Notes under the pieces: model-generated
The model's database searches: none
What the model was told of the DNA's origin: nothing
What the model saw: the letters and a program-made list of their open reading frames with translations, nothing else
Translations under genes and position numbers: made by a program
DNA from: a virus
Lineage: Duplodnaviria; Caudoviricetes
Virus record (IMG/VR): IMGVR_UViG_3300050510_000109
Location: 8,452-72,451 of that record
Length of the DNA: 64,000 bases
Reading direction: 5' to 3' (one strand)
Shown: piece after piece, positions 28,714 through 33,432 of the stretch
How positions within the stretch are numbered: the first letter of the stretch is position 1
How the letters are laid out: each line of letters begins with the position of its first letter

Positions 28714-28982
28714 ATGTAAATAGATCTATGCCCTAGATCATAATCATTTCATGATCATCTGTTCCGGCTGAATCCACGCAATTGCCACAAATCGTGACAA
28801 ATCCGACAATCCTCACAAATCGGACATTTGCCCTAGATCACCTAATGTCAGGACAAAATAGGACAAACACCCATACCCCATGACCGATGCTGATCAACTA
28901 GGACCAGCCGGTCATGGGGTACAAAATGCTACAAATCCGGACATATACGTACATACCCGGACATAGACCACCTTACTACGGT

Positions 28983-29234
28983 TTATAGCCTGATCAGCGG
29001 ATATTGGTTAATATGGATGAATTCGATCGCTATTGCGGAGAATGTCCGAGTTCTCCCTTCAGAGTCGATACCGTCGAACTGTCCCCAAATGTCCGGTTCG
29101 CCCAGAGCTACGCAGTAACGCTCGTTTTGGGTGTCGAAGACCGTTCCGAGCGTAATGCCTGACTCGTGCTGTTCGGGCTGAATGTCCGGTTTCTCCCGGA
29201 ATGGCTTCAATGGGTCATAAGGCATGTTCGTCAC
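28983..29234 (-). CDS. hypothetical protein
   Basis: ORF track. Confidence 0.55.
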   Translation of the reverse strand: MTNMPYDPLKPFREKPDIQPEQHESGITLGTVFDTQNERYCVALGEPDIWGQFDGIDSEGRTRTFSAIAIEFIHINQYPLIRL

Positions 29235-29443
29235 ATCCGGACGTATTGTCCGTCTTGCCCGATGAATACCCTTTGTCCGTTTCTGTTACGAAACATCTCA
29301 AAGAAGCCGGTAAAGTTGGTTCCGGTCGATTTGGAGTGTTTGTCCGTAGTCGCGGGCATATGGCACGGTAGCGGCCATTTTGTCGGCACACGCTCCTCTT
29401 GGGACTTTTGCTCCACATAGCGCATTTCTTCATAGAAGTTCAT
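29231..29443 (-). CDS. hypothetical protein
   Basis: ORF track, 4-nt overlap. Confidence 0.5.
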   Translation of the reverse strand: MNFYEEMRYVEQKSQEERVPTKWPLPCHMPATTDKHSKSTGTNFTGFFEMFRNRNGQRVFIGQDGQYVRM

Positions 29444-29745
29444 CTATTGTCCCGTCCGTCCGTTTTGGGATACACGCCCGATATGCGCTATATTGACCTA
29501 GATCTATGCACTTATAGACACTCATCTCTGGAATTCGTACGATTAAGCGATCTAAATGCATGGATGGATGGATCATTGATCTTATTTCAGTCAATATCCG
29601 CATATCGTAGTGTTTGACCGATTTGTCCTACTTGACCCATTTCTGGGTGGTATGCACTACTATGCGCAGTAAGGTGGCCTATGACTGGGTATGTTCTACT
29701 TTGTCAGCATGGGTGGCTTATGCGTGCCATGTCCGGTTTAGGATA

Positions 29746-30048
29746 CTATCCGCCAATAAGCAGGTCTCGCACCAATTCGCCGTGTTTGCGCCATCTGACC
29801 AGTTTGCTCAGTTCGTCCTGTGTGCCCAGTTCGACGCATCTGACGTAGTTTAGGGCGAAAGCTTCCACGGTGTCCCATTTGTCATAATGTGCCTGCCATA
29901 GGGTGTATGCGTGGTCTAGGACGTAACCTCCCACACTGGGCGAATCCCACCGAAATGTGCTGAAACGGTTGGATGTGTCCGACTGTGCGGCTTTGATGAA
30001 CGTTTGGACGAATTGGACCAGATCGACGCTTTTGTCCGAATTTGTCAT
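29746..30048 (-). CDS. hypothetical protein
   Basis: ORF track. Confidence 0.55.
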   Translation of the reverse strand: MTNSDKSVDLVQFVQTFIKAAQSDTSNRFSTFRWDSPSVGGYVLDHAYTLWQAHYDKWDTVEAFALNYVRCVELGTQDELSKLVRWRKHGELVRDLLIGG

Positions 30049-30329
30049 GATTGGGCCGCCTTGTCGCGCATCGCCTTAATCATCCCAGATGTCAGAACTA
30101 CGACATCATCCCACGTTCGGGCGCTTTGTCCGTATTCAGCGTTAAATGCCTTAATTGTCCAACCTTTGCGCGGTTCGAAGGCATATTTACGCATATAGCC
30201 GGTAGTGCGCCAATAGTGCAGTCTTGCGATGGCTTGTACGGCTCTGACGTTTTCCTCACCAGAGATCACGATTGTCTCGTTTGACATGACATGTCCTATC
30301 TGTCCGATTTGGATGATATGTGTGGACAT
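30045..30329 (-). CDS. hypothetical protein
   Basis: ORF track, ATGA overlap. Confidence 0.55.
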   Translation of the reverse strand: MSTHIIQIGQIGHVMSNETIVISGEENVRAVQAIARLHYWRTTGYMRKYAFEPRKGWTIKAFNAEYGQSARTWDDVVVLTSGMIKAMRDKAAQS

Positions 30330-30434
30330 GGCACGTATGAGCCAACCATACTGATTTGGGTAGATACAGCAGCTTTTATCCGGACATGTCCGCTTTGTTA
30401 CGCTATTGTCCTAGATGTCCGATTTGTAGCTTAT

Positions 30435-30764
30435 TTACCTTGTTTCGTACTTTCGGGCGAGCGCAGCGTCGTGGTGTGCTTGCTCCACAAATGTCCGCTC
30501 GTGTCCGTGATCGTGGTCATGTACGTGATTGTCCGGATTGTCCTGTTCTGCCACGAATTCGCCGAATTGCTCCAGAAAGATGGCGTATGCCCGATGTAGC
30601 AGGTCTTGCGCCTCATCGACCAGTTTGACGTGTTCGCCCGCTTTGCGCGCTAGGAGCAATTTGCGGAACATGTCCAGATCGCGCTCTATGGTCGATGTGT
30701 TGTGAGCCATGGCTTGCGCGACAGTTGCGGTATTTTGTCCGGCTCGTACTTCCATGATACACAT
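30435..30764 (-). CDS. hypothetical protein with His-rich tail
   Basis: start trimmed (AGGGAG RBS); HVHDHDHGHE. Confidence 0.55.
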   Translation of the reverse strand: MCIMEVRAGQNTATVAQAMAHNTSTIERDLDMFRKLLLARKAGEHVKLVDEAQDLLHRAYAIFLEQFGEFVAEQDNPDNHVHDHDHGHERTFVEQAHHDAALARKYETR

Positions 30765-31337
30765 TATGGCTTTTCTCCCTCTATGTCCGATTTTGTAGTA
30801 CTTTGAACGGACATGTCCAGATAGAAGCTGCTGTGTCCCGATATCCAACCATTGCCCGCCATGTCCGGTTTGGTACCTCTCGTCACACTTTGTGGCGAGT
30901 TGTCCCCCGTTAAGGGGTTTGTGCCGGAATGGGAGGGTTAGTGTGTCATGCCCAACATGAGCAGAATGGGCGATTTCTCCAAAATGACCAAAGCTGCCGC
31001 ATGTAGGCTGACAAGGGTGAGAATGTGCGTTGCGTGGTGAGTTGCCACCCTTGCACACCTACGTCCGATTTGGCTGGCTTTGGGGTGATTGCGCGGAGCT
31101 TCGTGCTTGCCCATGATTGTCTCCAATGTCCGATTTTGCACTGGTTGGGTGTATTGTCGGACATGGCGAGTAATGGCTGGATATCAGGGGATATGTCGCA
31201 ATCGTGGTGCTCTGACCCAACATGCCGTATTTGTGCTAGTTGTCCGATTCTTCCGGCTTGGGCTTTGTGGCCACCTCTGAGGCAATAATCCCAGAGATCA
31301 CAAGTGCGGTAATGATGACGATTTCCACGGGATTCTC

Positions 31338-31610: not shown

Positions 31611-31626
31611 GACTTACGCCCCGGTA

Positions 31627-31851
31627 TCAGGTGAGTTGTCCGGAATGTAGCAGAGTGCGAAGATTGATGCCTTTGGCGTCACTTCGACCCCTATGTGACA
31701 ACTTTCCGTTCCGAGAACTATGCCCGAATTGTCCGACCCGTTGTAGAACGTCACGAAGAATGCCAGTATGACCAGAAGAATCACGATATGCTCCCTTATG
31801 TCCGATTATGCCCGTATATACACCCCTATCTAATATTTTGTCCGATTTCAT
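31627..31851 (-). CDS. hypothetical protein
   Basis: ORF track. Confidence 0.4.
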   Translation of the reverse strand: MKSDKILDRGVYTGIIGHKGAYRDSSGHTGILRDVLQRVGQFGHSSRNGKLSHRGRSDAKGINLRTLLHSGQLT

Positions 31852-31864
31852 GATCGCGGGCTCC

Positions 31865-31897
31865 GGAATTTTCGGACTTTTGCGATCTATTATACTA
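31865..31897 (-). promoter_or_regulatory. TATAAT-like -10 followed by AGATCGC...AAAATTCC element, copy 3
   Basis: minus strand TAGTATAATAGATCGCAAAAGTCCGAAAATTCC, 14 nt before ATG 31851. Confidence 0.55.
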
Positions 31898-32024
31898 AAT
31901 AGGGGTACCTCAGGTCATTTCCGGACATGTCAGGCCAAAGCACCATGAATGCGACATATCCTACCCAGCTACGACATACTAGGACAAAACCCGACATGTA
32001 CGGACATGTCCGATTTTTCCGAAA

Positions 32025-32261
32025 TTAGACGCTTATGCCCCATGTCAGCTCAACGTACGCTATAACGGCATCTTCCTCGTTATCGTACGATTTAGCGGAT
32101 ATTTCGGACTCGCCGGAACTGTCCCATTCTACTACGTTAAAGTACTCTTTGTCCGGCAATTCGTACATTGTCACGGTATTTCCGGACATGTCGTACTTAT
32201 ACGCATCTGCTACGATACGTCCGTGATCGTGCATTTGTCCGACTTTGTGCTGACTTGTCAT
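32025..32261 (-). CDS. hypothetical protein
   Basis: ORF track; GGGAG RBS. Confidence 0.55.
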   Translation of the reverse strand: MTSQHKVGQMHDHGRIVADAYKYDMSGNTVTMYELPDKEYFNVVEWDSSGESEISAKSYDNEEDAVIAYVELTWGISV

Positions 32262-32401
32262 TACTTCTCCCTAAATGTCCGTTTTTGTCCGGACATGTCG
32301 AGATTTGTCCCAGTATGTCTAGCCATTTCGTGACAAAGGGTAATTTCTTGCAACTTATCCTGATGCATCCAGATATGCCGGGATATGTCCGATTTTTCTA
32401 C

Positions 32402-32728
32402 TTAAATCCCAACAATTCCGTACGAATCGGAATTATCGGTTATTTTGAGAATTATCGGCTCATTTCCGACATCTTCCCCATTTTCGTCTACTTCCAGACA
32501 TTTCAGGACATGGGTGACAATTACGACATCTCCGGGTTTTTCCTGATATGTGGTAACTGTCATGATTTCGTACTCTTTGTCCTGATATTGCAGGTAATAT
32601 CCGATTTGGGGGAGATATCCCAGATTAACCCCTAAGTACGTGTTTTTCCCGAAATATGCGGGAATTTCCGGCAATTCCTCATTTGAGATGAGATTTCCGG
32701 ACTTGTCGTACATAGTGTCATATGCCAT
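32402..32728 (-). CDS. hypothetical protein
   Basis: start trimmed to MAYDTM. Confidence 0.55.
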   Translation of the reverse strand: MAYDTMYDKSGNLISNEELPEIPAYFGKNTYLGVNLGYLPQIGYYLQYQDKEYEIMTVTTYQEKPGDVVIVTHVLKCLEVDENGEDVGNEPIILKITDNSDSYGIVGI

Positions 32729-33432
32729 GGTATGTCCCCTTATGTCCGTTTTTATCCTGATTTGTACGGACATACCCCGACATAACCGGATACATCAGGA
32801 TTTTCCCGTCATTCCACGGAAAATCCGCCTTTGTCCGATTTATCCACTCTTTAGTTCTCAAAGGACCATTTTGTGCATTTTTCGGACATTTCCTGTATGT
32901 CCGTTTTTCCCCTTTTGCCCCCTTTCGCCGCTTCCTACCTATATTATACTGCGAGCTAAGTCGACTAAGTCTATCGTACCAAATCCGGACATATCCCCAT
33001 ATAGCGGGACAGGCATATCCGCATATATCCAGATAAATCGGACATATCAGCCTATACCGGAAGTTGATCTGTGACGTGCGACACACCACTATATCCGGAT
33101 ATAGTGTATATATCCCCATATGTCCGATTTATACCCCCTTACAAGATCACCGCGGGGGTGATCTTGACCTATTATCCTCTTATTTCGTATAAATCCTGAC
33201 AAATCGGACATATCGTATTTAAGCTGAAAAAAGGTAAAAAACTATATTAAAAATGATAAATCGGAAATGTCGGAATTTGGCGTCTGTCTTTTACATCGAG
33301 TTTCGTTTTTATACTTGGTTAAGTTAGTAATCTTAGTAATTTTAGTCGTTTTTCCTATTAGCGCATTAAGTACCAACATAGTCAACCTAGTACACACTAT
33401 CCAATTGCCAATTCATCCTTTACACTCATGTC

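What the first reader, a model, noticed from the sequence alone, without database searches (positions are those of the whole stretch)
28787..33270. 4.5-kb tract saturated with TGTCCGAWTT boxes resembling BldC sites, in a phage encoding a BldC-like protein
Seen: TGTCCG/CGGACA occurs dozens of times (by eye), against about 2 expected for a hexamer on both strands of 4.5 kb. It lies in intergenic DNA and inside ORFs, often extended to TGTCCGAWTT. There are tandem 9-10 bp runs (28787-28830 acaaatcgtg-acaaatccg-acaatcctc-acaaatcgg; 33191-33210 aaatcctgac-aaatcggaca) and palindromic CGGACATGTCCG (30381, 32001). Orientation is mostly TGTCCG in the centre and CGGACA at both edges. Established (recalled): Streptomyces BldC binds head-to-tail on AATT-N3/4-(C/G) direct repeats, and AATTCGGAC fits that consensus. 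Inference: host or phage BldC coats this probably early or terminal region as a nucleoprotein filament, for silencing, developmental sensing, DNA protection or origin/packaging architecture.
Basis: partly seen in the sequence, partly recalled or inferred. Interest (0 to 1): 0.85.

Follow-up and report, generated by a model that had tools for sequence, protein, structure and literature searches.

The report
Phage operon with two hidden codes
A soil virus of filamentous bacteria appears to write two extra codes into its early genes: a continuous row of landing sites for a host DNA-coating protein, and paired RNA brackets around each gene that copy how the host makes its ribosomal RNA.

Summary
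Confirmed, and larger than reported. The 53 boxes (2.0 expected) are the best-preserved units of a continuous 9/10-bp head-to-tail lattice. About 367 units tile 71% of the tract (controls 3-16%), with the signal strongest at third codon positions. The unit equals the optimised BldC site, and its best-conserved positions are those BldC reads. The lattice recurs beside the terminase region in 13 of 20 related phage records, including four complete genomes with no BldC-like gene found, so host BldC is the likeliest reader. Seven abutting ~30-bp long-range stems each bracket one or two small genes. Across 64 stems they show G·U bias on the mRNA strand and fixed central mismatches with RNase III geometry. 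An rRNA-type boxA precedes them. I read this as an early operon that mimics an rRNA operon and is coated by BldC. Binding, cleavage, host, genome ends and the coat's purpose are inferred, not shown. No cultured relative was found.

The parts
28762..33277 (.). Phased lattice of 9/10-bp head-to-tail units, consensus TGTCCGNWT(W) on +, that is (W)AWNCGGACA on the mRNA-like strand
   Evidence: 367 units in 28501-33400, 71% cover, runs up to 29 units, half 9-bp and half 10-bp
33240..33249 (-). Conserved border motif TAATATAGTT at the right end of the lattice; candidate early promoter element or packaging-side signal (unresolved)
   Evidence: also in array-free G004 and G021; 70-85 nt upstream of boxA in G004 and G023
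32943..32948 (-). Candidate -10 hexamer about 80 nt upstream of boxA (tentative; low-information motif)
32845..32867 (-). rRNA-type boxA antiterminator in the leader of the cassette chain
   Evidence: top window hit (28.1 bits); the phage-built matrix hits the 16S leader stem in 20 of 22 Actinomycetota rRNA loci
32357..32801 (-). Cassette 1: arms 32767-32801 / 32357-32391; 108-aa acidic SH3/KOW/Tudor-fold protein at 32402-32728, with homologues in 6 other phages
31973..32319 (-). Cassette 2: arms 32286-32319 / 31973-32006 (holds palindrome 32001); ORF 32025-32261
31189..31961 (-). Cassette 3: arms 31926-31961 / 31189-31224; ORFs 31627-31851 and 31338-31610; the same arms occur in G001 and G012, with different cargo in G012
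30837..31188 (-). Cassette 4: arms 31158-31188 / 30837-30867; ORF 30938-31114
30363..30837 (-). Cassette 5: arms 30808-30837 / 30363-30392 (holds palindrome 30381); ORF 30435-30764
29704..30354 (-). Cassette 6: arms 30324-30354 / 29704-29734 with C·A (30339/29719) and A·C (30336/29722) mismatches flanking 2 bp; ORFs 30045-30329 and 29746-30048
28951..29694 (-). Cassette 7: arms 29665-29694 / 28951-28980; ORFs 29231-29443 and 28983-29234
27424..27996 (.). An eighth long-range inverted repeat outside the lattice, of different sequence type; role not established
3040..3303 (-). BldC-like winged-helix protein; keeps E16, F21, V23, T27, R30, W31, T42, G44, H46 and R48, with K26R, T29N, L43P and R47H
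20508..21179 (-). Conserved 223-aa protein: Xis/BldC/gpNu1-fold winged helix plus helical tail, no Arg30 equivalent; rival reader of the lattice
   Evidence: Z 5.1-5.5, rmsd 1.7-2.6 A over 52-54 residues
14406..14428 (-). Second boxA, upstream of tRNA-His in the tRNA region
   Evidence: 22.1 bits
35914..37338 (+). Terminase large subunit; start of the divergent late arm that the lattice region abuts in all relatives that carry it

Best explanation
The tract is the early, leftward operon of a lytic actinophage and carries two independent codes. RNA code: host RNA polymerase starts at the right border and is modified at an rRNA-type boxA by host Nus factors. It transcribes a chain of small genes, each bracketed by its own ~30-bp long-range stem, as 16S rRNA is bracketed by its processing stem. 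Host RNase III cuts each stem at its centre (5' of the mismatched A on both strands, 2-nt 3' overhang). This releases mostly single-gene mRNAs with a ~40-nt leader, a ~28-nt tail and paired ends, which should resist exonucleases. DNA code: the same DNA is written, largely through synonymous positions, as a 9/10-bp lattice on which host BldC polymerises head to tail for kilobases; the phage's own BldC-like protein is an optional extra. The most likely purpose of the coat is to shield the first-expressed, probably first-entering, A+T-rich DNA from host nucleases and silencers until its products act, while the antiterminated polymerase reads through it. SHOWN by computation: lattice, stems, strand bias, boxA identity, conservation, and separability of the two codes. 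INFERRED: a BldC-family protein binds (~0.8), host BldC is the main reader (~0.65), the stems form in RNA (~0.9), boxA is functional (~0.85), RNase III cuts (~0.7), the shield purpose (~0.4), and first entry (by synteny only).
For: Lattice. Strongest at codon position 3 (lag-9 autocorrelation 0.35 versus 0.15 and 0.09). It fades with distance from the first cassette in 7 of 9 arrays long enough to test (rho -0.66 to -0.97). Match to BldC: PMC5859096 passages and sections 10 and 12. Wild-type whiI scores 15.2 bits and the optimised site 20.4 on the phage matrix, versus maxima of 10.7-11.1 in three control sets. Host reader: the flanking consensus is nearly the same in 13 of 14 arrays; BldC is over cut-off in 53 of 61 sampled Actinomycetes (47 of 55 published); the recognition helix and wing are identical in the 21 host copies retrieved. 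Stems: 7 with score >=36 versus 0-1 in 16 block shuffles; 77 modules in 12 genomes; G·U 88 versus A·C 23 outside two columns, G·U ahead in 11 of 12 genomes; mismatch at -10 in 38 and at -7 in 41 of 64 around a 2-bp centre paired in 64 and 62 of 64; 59 of 64 cassettes hold an SD-led ORF ending inside. boxA; it recurs at breaks in the chain in G003, G008, G014 and G017. Separability: G021 has 6 stems and no lattice but is GATC-saturated.
Against: No binding, RNA or cleavage data. Genome ends are unresolved, so 'first-entering' rests on synteny with cultured phage Yappy, whose boxA lies ~0.5 kb from the record end. The long form of the 223-aa winged-helix protein occurs in 10 array-bearing genomes and only one array-free one (G016), though this follows one clade split. 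G023 has a 10.0-bp period and a shifted consensus, which an invariant host reader does not predict. Strict AATT-N4-C is only 1.5-fold enriched (3.6 versus 2.4 per kb), and PMC6428758 warns that BldC sites cannot be predicted. The host 16S stems do not share the fixed two-mismatch centre, so RNase III is assigned by recalled geometry; 18 of 64 stems lack both mismatches. Two of 7 window stems are more stable on the + strand. The phage boxA does not pair with a downstream partner as in rRNA. 7 of 20 relatives lack the lattice; G004 and G019 have boxA without stems or lattice. Decay is weak or absent in this genome and G001 (rho -0.40, -0.03).
Confidence: 0.5

Rival explanations
1. Same anatomy, but the BldC coat is an off-switch or developmental sensor: host BldC, later reinforced by the phage copy, silences the early operon after its burst or according to host growth phase.
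For: BldC coating is proposed to block RNA polymerase sterically. The MerR-like D29 Gp36 represses phage genes from direct repeats. The lattice starts at the putative promoter border and is strongest there.
Against: Known BldC repression needs 2-4 repeats at a promoter, not hundreds inside genes. A boxA-modified polymerase is built to read through obstacles. The phage copy does not track the lattice.
Confidence: 0.2
2. The reader is the phage's conserved 223-aa Xis/gpNu1-fold protein (20508-21179), and the lattice is an architectural track for packaging, origin or DNA-entry function next to the terminase genes.
For: It has the same fold class as BldC, Xis and gpNu1. It is present in 10 of 10 near-complete array-bearing genomes tested, and the long form nearly tracks the array. 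The array abuts the small-terminase gene in most relatives.
Against: It has no Arg at the BldC Arg30 position, and its recognition helix varies among array-bearing phages (mostly 18-52% identity to the window copy) while the motif does not. It is also in 5 of 7 array-free genomes. The motif equals a site optimised for host BldC.
Confidence: 0.15
3. The lattice is a sponge: replicating genomes, each with hundreds of sites, titrate host BldC and push the host into premature development.
For: About 367 units here and 9-12 kb arrays in relatives; apparent Kd about 20 nM for optimal sites; BldC delays development (title and passages of PMC6428758).
Against: A sponge need not lie in coding DNA, in one orientation, or fade from a promoter. 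Eight of these phages encode extra BldC-like protein.
Confidence: 0.08
4. The inverted arms are DNA recombination or inversion sites that shuffle gene cassettes; complementarity is kept by conversion, and the boxes are recombinase half-sites (a resolvase half-site resemblance is recalled).
For: The same arms enclose different cargo in relatives. The central 4-mer reads the same in both arms in 24 of 64 stems.
Against: G·U bias is specific to the mRNA strand. The central 4-mer is variable (commonest 15 of 64). ORFs lie on one strand in 59 of 64 cassettes, so there is no sign of inversion. No strand-changing joint was listed in four runs of contigs. G021 stems lack the box. A boxA leads the chain.
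Confidence: 0.06
5. The periodic motif is an RNA-level signal or a relic of minisatellite expansion, and the BldC match is coincidence.
For: Almost all of the lattice may be transcribed if the border motif is the promoter. Ten-base and smaller indels occur between strains.
Against: It is imposed on conserved genes and on a DUF2637-like gene, mostly at synonymous positions. The same motif and period occur in a distant phage with unrelated genes (G006). Period and conserved positions fit the BldC-DNA structure.
Confidence: 0.05

Closest known systems
Streptomyces BldC operators (whiI, smeA-sffA; PMC5859096, PMC6428758)
   Same: Unit sequence, 9-10-bp head-to-tail spacing, tolerance of degenerate units next to good ones, conserved YpG step and A/T tract.
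   Different: 2-4 repeats at a promoter versus ~367 units (9-12 kb in relatives) running through protein-coding genes of a phage; binding not tested here.
Bacterial rRNA operon (boxA, Nus-modified polymerase, long-range RNase III stems; PMC8632103)
   Same: The same boxA sequence as actinobacterial 16S leaders, repeated internal boxA in some relatives, and 25-35-bp stems joining the flanks of a whole gene.
   Different: Brackets protein-coding genes; 3-12 stems in a chain, each of unique sequence; boxA is separate from the stems and unpaired; a fixed two-mismatch centre not seen in the 22 host 16S stems examined.
Phage early operons cut by RNase III (SP82 per PMC4838370 passage; T7 with boxA and transcription-driven entry, recalled; Curtobacterium phage Yappy)
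   Same: Small early genes behind a boxA near a genome end, with duplexes between or around genes.
   Different: Those use local hairpins between genes (Yappy: local hairpins in 5 of 7 intergenic stretches folded, no long-range stem, no lattice). Here the stems are long-range and would leave each mRNA with paired ends.
Terminal nucleoprotein filaments and Xis-type filaments (phi29 p6, recalled; lambda and Pukovnik Xis and D29 Gp36, PMC12266134)
   Same: Periodic DNA signal for a cooperative filament on phage DNA.
   Different: Those use a phage protein over tens to a few hundred bases (p6 extent recalled); here the likeliest reader is a host protein over kilobases of coding DNA.
Mycobacteriophage stoperators and start-associated sequences (recalled)
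   Same: Many oriented copies of a short motif, some next to ribosome-binding sites.
   Different: Those are discrete and genome-wide; here the copies are peaks of a continuous phased lattice confined to one operon.

Membership tests
BldC binding site | A/T tract followed 4-5 bp later by the C-G pair of a YpG step | tested here: met
   Learned unit conserves T (0.70) and G (0.77) at positions 1-2 and A/T at 8-10; loose consensus enriched 2.6-4.3-fold, strict AATT form only 1.5-fold
BldC binding site | Two or more direct repeats at 9-10-bp spacing | tested here: met
   Runs of up to 29 units, half 9-bp and half 10-bp; period 9.45-9.6 in 11 of 14 arrays, 9.75-10.0 in three short ones
BldC binding site | Cooperative head-to-tail binding by BldC, dependent on R30, H46 and G44 | not testable with these tools
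   Needs footprinting, anisotropy or ChIP
BldC protein family (NF033787), for 3040-3303 | Score at or above the curated cut-off of 77 bits | tested here: not met
   54.8 bits; BldC-like, not filed as a member
BldC protein family (NF033787), for 3040-3303 | DNA-reading and interface residues (R30, H46, W31, F21, G44, E16) | tested here: met
   All kept; K26R, R22K, L43P, R47H
rRNA-type boxA antiterminator | Sequence of the actinobacterial rrn leader boxA, placed in a leader before the genes | tested here: met
   Matrix from 11 phage leaders scores >12 bits and overlaps the 16S leader stem in 20 of 22 loci; control maximum 11.2
rRNA-type boxA antiterminator | NusB-NusE loading and read-through of Rho-dependent terminators | not testable with these tools
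   Needs reporter or in vitro transcription
rRNA operon processing stem | boxA itself forms the upstream arm of the stem (as in 20 of 22 host loci) | tested here: not met
   No partner scoring >=22 within 14 kb downstream of the phage boxA; works like, but is not, an rRNA stem
RNase III substrate | RNA duplex of two helical turns or more on the transcribed strand (criterion recalled) | tested here: met
   About 29 bp; G·U bias on the mRNA strand; mean pairing probability 0.72-0.93 for the 7 window stems
RNase III substrate | Double cut leaving 2-nt 3' overhangs, lost in an rnc mutant | not testable with these tools
   Only the geometry fits (mismatches flank a central 2 bp); no RNase III domain in 16 of 16 phage records
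Site-specific recombination cassette (integron- or invertase-like) | Fixed crossover core shared by all sites | tested here: not met
   Commonest central 4-mer in 15 of 64; same in both arms in 24 of 64
Gbn (GATC-binding nucleoid protein) sites, for G021 | GATC followed by (A/T)T | tested here: inconclusive
   GATC 57 versus 11.2 expected in 2 kb, but T at +5 in only 24 of 104; Gbn also binds the bare core more weakly
DnaA-box origin cluster | Clustered DnaA boxes (consensus recalled) | tested here: not met
   2 boxes with <=1 mismatch in the window's tract
T5-type long terminal repeat with first-step transfer | Tract lies in a terminal repeat that enters first | tested here: inconclusive
   TerL is 27% identical to T5 and 34% to Wollypog; only contigs were available, with no twofold depth step

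The most novel reading that the evidence does not exclude
A clade of lytic actinophages builds its early region as self-armouring DNA and a mock rRNA operon. Kilobases of coding sequence are recoded so that a host nucleoid-like protein (BldC here; possibly Gbn in G021) polymerises on the DNA as it enters, protecting it and perhaps ratcheting it in. Host rRNA machinery then turns the operon into single-gene mRNAs with clasped, perhaps ligated, ends that place the stop codon beside the same gene's ribosome-binding site.
Probability: 0.3. Interest if true: 0.95.

Novelty: new variant of a known kind. Interest (0 to 1): 0.85.

Why it matters
If true, it shows a phage recruiting a host developmental regulator as a kilobase-scale coat purely by how its genes are spelled, and borrowing the whole rRNA production route (boxA, long-range stems, central cleavage) to make mRNA. 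It bears on two open questions. One is whether BldC is a transcription factor or a Fis-like nucleoid protein (posed in PMC6428758): the tract is a natural 4.5-kb substrate for filament studies. The other is what RNase III reads in a substrate: 64 natural stems of different sequence share one geometry. The cassette design is also a portable way to express stable single-gene mRNAs in actinomycetes. Each biochemical piece has precedent, hence 'new variant'; I found no description of the lattice or of the stem chain in the searches listed.

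Tried and rejected
Cultured relatives: none close (best TerL 34%, capsid 34%, polymerase ~28-32%); the tract DNA has only chance hits. The stretches examined from Wollypog, Ottawa and Yappy (19-22 kb each, not whole genomes) show no lattice and no stem chain. Host: the lysin found nothing in genomes; the capsid protein found 3 contigs in mixed bins; an actinomycete host is inferred from DUF397 genes in relatives, a holin look-alike and boxA. 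Genome ends: only contigs, no terminus signal; no RNA holder listed. No phage RNase III or RtcB in 16 of 16 records; other RNA ligases were not searched. Rfam gives only tRNAs. The promoter scan is at chance level (25 versus 21.1 +/- 4.6). The complex prediction for two copies of the BldC-like protein gave no answer. Foldseek found nothing for the 223-aa protein; its GapR-like rows have rmsd 7-12 A and were set aside. The first-cassette protein is a common SH3/KOW/Tudor fold (Z up to 8.0), with no function shown. Window cargo ORFs have no Pfam or PHROG match. Six-base palindromes are not depleted in the tract (14.9 versus ~12 per kb). A phage protein found in all array-bearing and no array-free genomes was sought and not found. 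The smeA 18-mer could not be framed by my scoring (negative score, an artefact). Raw wobble counts over whole arms showed no strand bias (92 versus 92); the bias appears only after removing columns -10 and -7, which I chose after seeing the table. The boxA instances were picked with a pattern I wrote after seeing them and recalling boxA, so the matrix is not blind. Rows left out: 13 of 77 stems without the anchor; G006 and G024 from the stem table; G014 only partly covered; 8 of 30 rRNA loci (1 unpublished, 3 short flanks, 4 without locator); 2 of 23 published host BldC loci not matched by my pattern; G011 and G025-G030 not fetched whole. G006-G009 were fetched because they matched the box pattern, so 13 of 20 is biased upward (12 of 19 among records also found by terminase or capsid homology). 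Unpublished genomes: G078 was left out; G118 and G104 out; six count only in the 53-of-61 tally. Literature: no description found; subscription papers are mostly absent. Supplements were closed and bear on the BldC oligo series (PMC5859096 Suppl. Figs 1, 7) and ChIP peak widths (PMC6428758 Fig. S1, Table S1).

Full report
Setting. The window is 64 kb of a 72,451-bp virus record whose ends overlap. It has a leftward arm with replication genes and 12 tRNA calls, and a rightward arm of terminase, head, tail and lysis genes. G+C is 48%. Near-identical DNA occurs in rhizosphere and soil runs. No cultured phage is close. Relatives carry DUF397 genes and the holin resembles actinomycete and phage clusters, so I infer an actinomycete host, probably filamentous (the DUF397 link is recalled). 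The tract lies where the two arms diverge.

The observation. There are 53 hexamers in the tract against 2.0-8.8 expected from order 0-2 models, 15 of them in the full ten-base form; the tandem runs and palindromes are as quoted.

First code: a lattice. Flanks of the boxes repeat the motif in degenerate form about every ten bases. G+C autocorrelation peaks at lags 9-10, 18-20, 27-30 and 39, with spectral power 7.5 at 9.5 bp versus 0.9-1.8 in three other window regions. A model trained on six other phages tiles 71% of 28.5-33.4 kb with 367 units, half 9 bp and half 10 bp, in runs of up to 29. Seven control regions give 4-10%, base shuffles 3-5% and six-base block shuffles 13-16%. The tract holds real genes with homologues in relatives, and within ten ORFs the signal is strongest at codon position 3, so it has been imposed on coding sequence.

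What reads it. The optimised BldC duplex is two copies of TGTCCGAAT (PMC5859096, passages). BldC reads an A/T tract with His46 and a YpG step with Arg30, tolerates degenerate neighbours, forms filaments and shortens DNA by a third (sections 10 and 12 read whole). The learned unit conserves exactly these features, and the natural whiI site outscores every control 22-mer sampled. PMC6428758 (passages) cautions that BldC sites cannot be predicted, and the strict AATT form is only 1.5-fold enriched. The lattice occurs in 13 of 20 related records, 2-12 kb long (about 1 kb visible in two truncated ones), upstream of the terminase genes, with nearly the same consensus in 13 of 14 arrays. The phage BldC-like gene keeps the key residues but misses the family cut-off. 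Among complete genomes it is present with the lattice in five (G000, G001, G012, G015, G018), not found with the lattice in four (G002, G008, G014, G017), and present without it in two (G019, G022). Host BldC is over cut-off in 53 of 61 sampled Actinomycetes (47 of 55 published) with an invariant recognition helix. An invariant motif fits an invariant host reader. The best rival is the 223-aa protein at 20508-21179: Xis/BldC/gpNu1 fold, found in 16 genomes, long form nearly tracking the array, but without Arg30 and with a variable helix.

Second code: a chain of RNA stems. A repeat search showed long inverted repeats that abut one another. Seven pairs of 30-36 nt enclose 279-701 nt each; 16 block shuffles give 0-1. 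Twelve genomes give 77 such modules, with median arm 31 nt and neighbours mostly within about 20 nt. Genome-wide they are nearly confined to this region; exceptions are extra clusters in G018 and one pair each in G024 and this genome. In 64 anchored stems pairing runs from -23 to +6. Two columns, -10 and -7, are mismatched in 38 and 41 stems, mostly C·A and A·C, and flank two base pairs at the centre that are paired in 64 and 62. Elsewhere G·U outnumbers A·C 88 to 23 on the mRNA strand, in 11 of 12 genomes. Among 44 related stem pairs, 191 differences are compensated on both sides, 65 on one side and 49 break pairing (pseudo-replicated). One pair of arms persists in three phages while its cargo changes. 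Each upstream arm is followed by a ribosome-binding site; 59 of 64 cassettes hold an ORF that ends inside, with median leader 42 nt and tail 28 nt from the predicted cuts. The upstream arm is an inverted copy of lattice DNA, which explains the palindromes and most internal reversed boxes. A two-fold symmetric duplex with about 14 bp either side of a 2-bp centre is RNase III geometry (recalled). The phages encode no RNase III or RtcB.

boxA. A 17-23-nt motif lies 16-118 nt before the first stem in 11 of 12 genomes (12 of 12 on re-scan). A matrix built from it finds the upstream arm of the 16S processing stem in 20 of 22 Actinomycetota rRNA loci, and its second-best hit in the window precedes tRNA-His. 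In rRNA operons boxA nucleates a Nus complex that resists termination and helps deliver the leader to its distant complement before RNase III cleavage (PMC8632103, passages). SP82 early mRNA is a known RNase III target (PMC4838370, passage); T7's boxA, hairpins and transcription-driven entry are recalled (one search failed).

The codes are separable. G021 has six stems of the same build, no lattice, and GATC at 20-31 per kb against about 5 elsewhere, a partial match to Gbn sites (PMC9239103, passages). Distant G006 has the lattice, one stem and no boxA. G004 and G019 have boxA only. Cultured Yappy has a boxA about 0.5 kb from its record end and local hairpins between early genes. The lattice persists inside the loops and for up to 9 kb beyond the last stem, fading with distance in 7 of 9 arrays.

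Mechanism. I commit to an early operon that mimics an rRNA operon and is coated by host BldC. I favour shielding of first-expressed DNA as the coat's purpose because the coat covers gene bodies rather than a promoter, fades inward, and is replaced by another motif saturation in G021. Shut-off (compare D29 Gp36; PMC12266134, passages), a phage reader and a sponge remain open. Genome ends could not be mapped.

Novelty. Ten literature searches (listings and abstract starts only, apart from the six papers cited) found no phage BldC lattice and no chain of gene-bracketing stems. Every part has a precedent; the scale, topology and combination have none that I found. Interest 0.85.

Noticed in passing
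L293:15400-18600 (G021 35.4-38.6 kb): Same stem chain without the lattice; the region is saturated with GATC instead (57 versus 11 expected in 2 kb), a possible switch to another host DNA-binding protein such as Gbn.
   Followed up: partly
L147:5300-8800 (G006 25.3-28.8 kb): A distant phage (TerL 32-42%) has a 2-3-kb lattice in the same syntenic place, with two small paralogous winged-helix-like ORFs beside and inside it and strong promoter-like sites.
   Followed up: partly
L361:15800-20075 (Curtobacterium phage Yappy): A cultured phage with a boxA (22.5 bits) near the record end and similar local hairpins between early genes, one of them ArdA-like; a testable local-hairpin counterpart.
   Followed up: partly
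window 33240-33249: TAATATAG(T/C)T on the minus strand borders the lattice in 13 of 14 array-bearing records, usually ~180-240 nt before the small terminase or next gene, and also occurs in array-free G004 and G021.
   Followed up: partly
window 14406-14428 and 4321-14955: A second boxA leads into a region with 12-13 tRNA genes interspersed with Ro60/TROVE, VWA and SPFH-like genes; no Y RNA was found by Rfam.
   Followed up: partly
window 24715-24778, 25017-25095, 26811-26866, 21311-21416: Local intergenic hairpins of 25-31 bp per arm further along the early arm; possible conventional RNase III sites or terminators.
   Followed up: no
window 27404-28016: Non-coding stretch with an inverted repeat, a repeated purine-rich motif ending in GGATCAG, a G+C hairpin and an A+T-rich patch, partly conserved in G001; possible origin or promoter region.
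   Followed up: partly
window 62839-63333: This genome, G001 and G012 lack the clade's small-terminase gene beside TerL and have a glycosyltransferase-like gene there (33433-34161); an HTH protein matching phrog_645 lies in the replication arm and may be the small terminase (recalled).
   Followed up: partly
L277:9892-10110 (G019): A lattice-free relative encodes a BldC above the family cut-off (92.5 bits), so phage BldC genes probably have a role apart from the lattice.
   Followed up: no
G018 (L272:992-2926, L274:10355-10892 and 12598-14937): This record has two terminase regions, two boxA-led stem chains and a 114-bp inverted repeat; it may be chimeric.
   Followed up: no
G013, G014, G015, G016, G019, G002: DUF397 genes, often in tandem or with internal repeats, in six relatives; none clustered from this genome.
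   Followed up: partly
window 32402-32728: The first cassette encodes an acidic SH3/KOW/Tudor-fold protein, with homologues in six relatives, usually in the first cassette; best matches are EF-P domain I and polymerase-binding Tudor domains (Z 6-8), a lead only.
   Followed up: partly
window 18000-27800: Short same-orientation runs of lattice units cover about 10% of the rest of the early arm against 4-6% elsewhere.
   Followed up: partly
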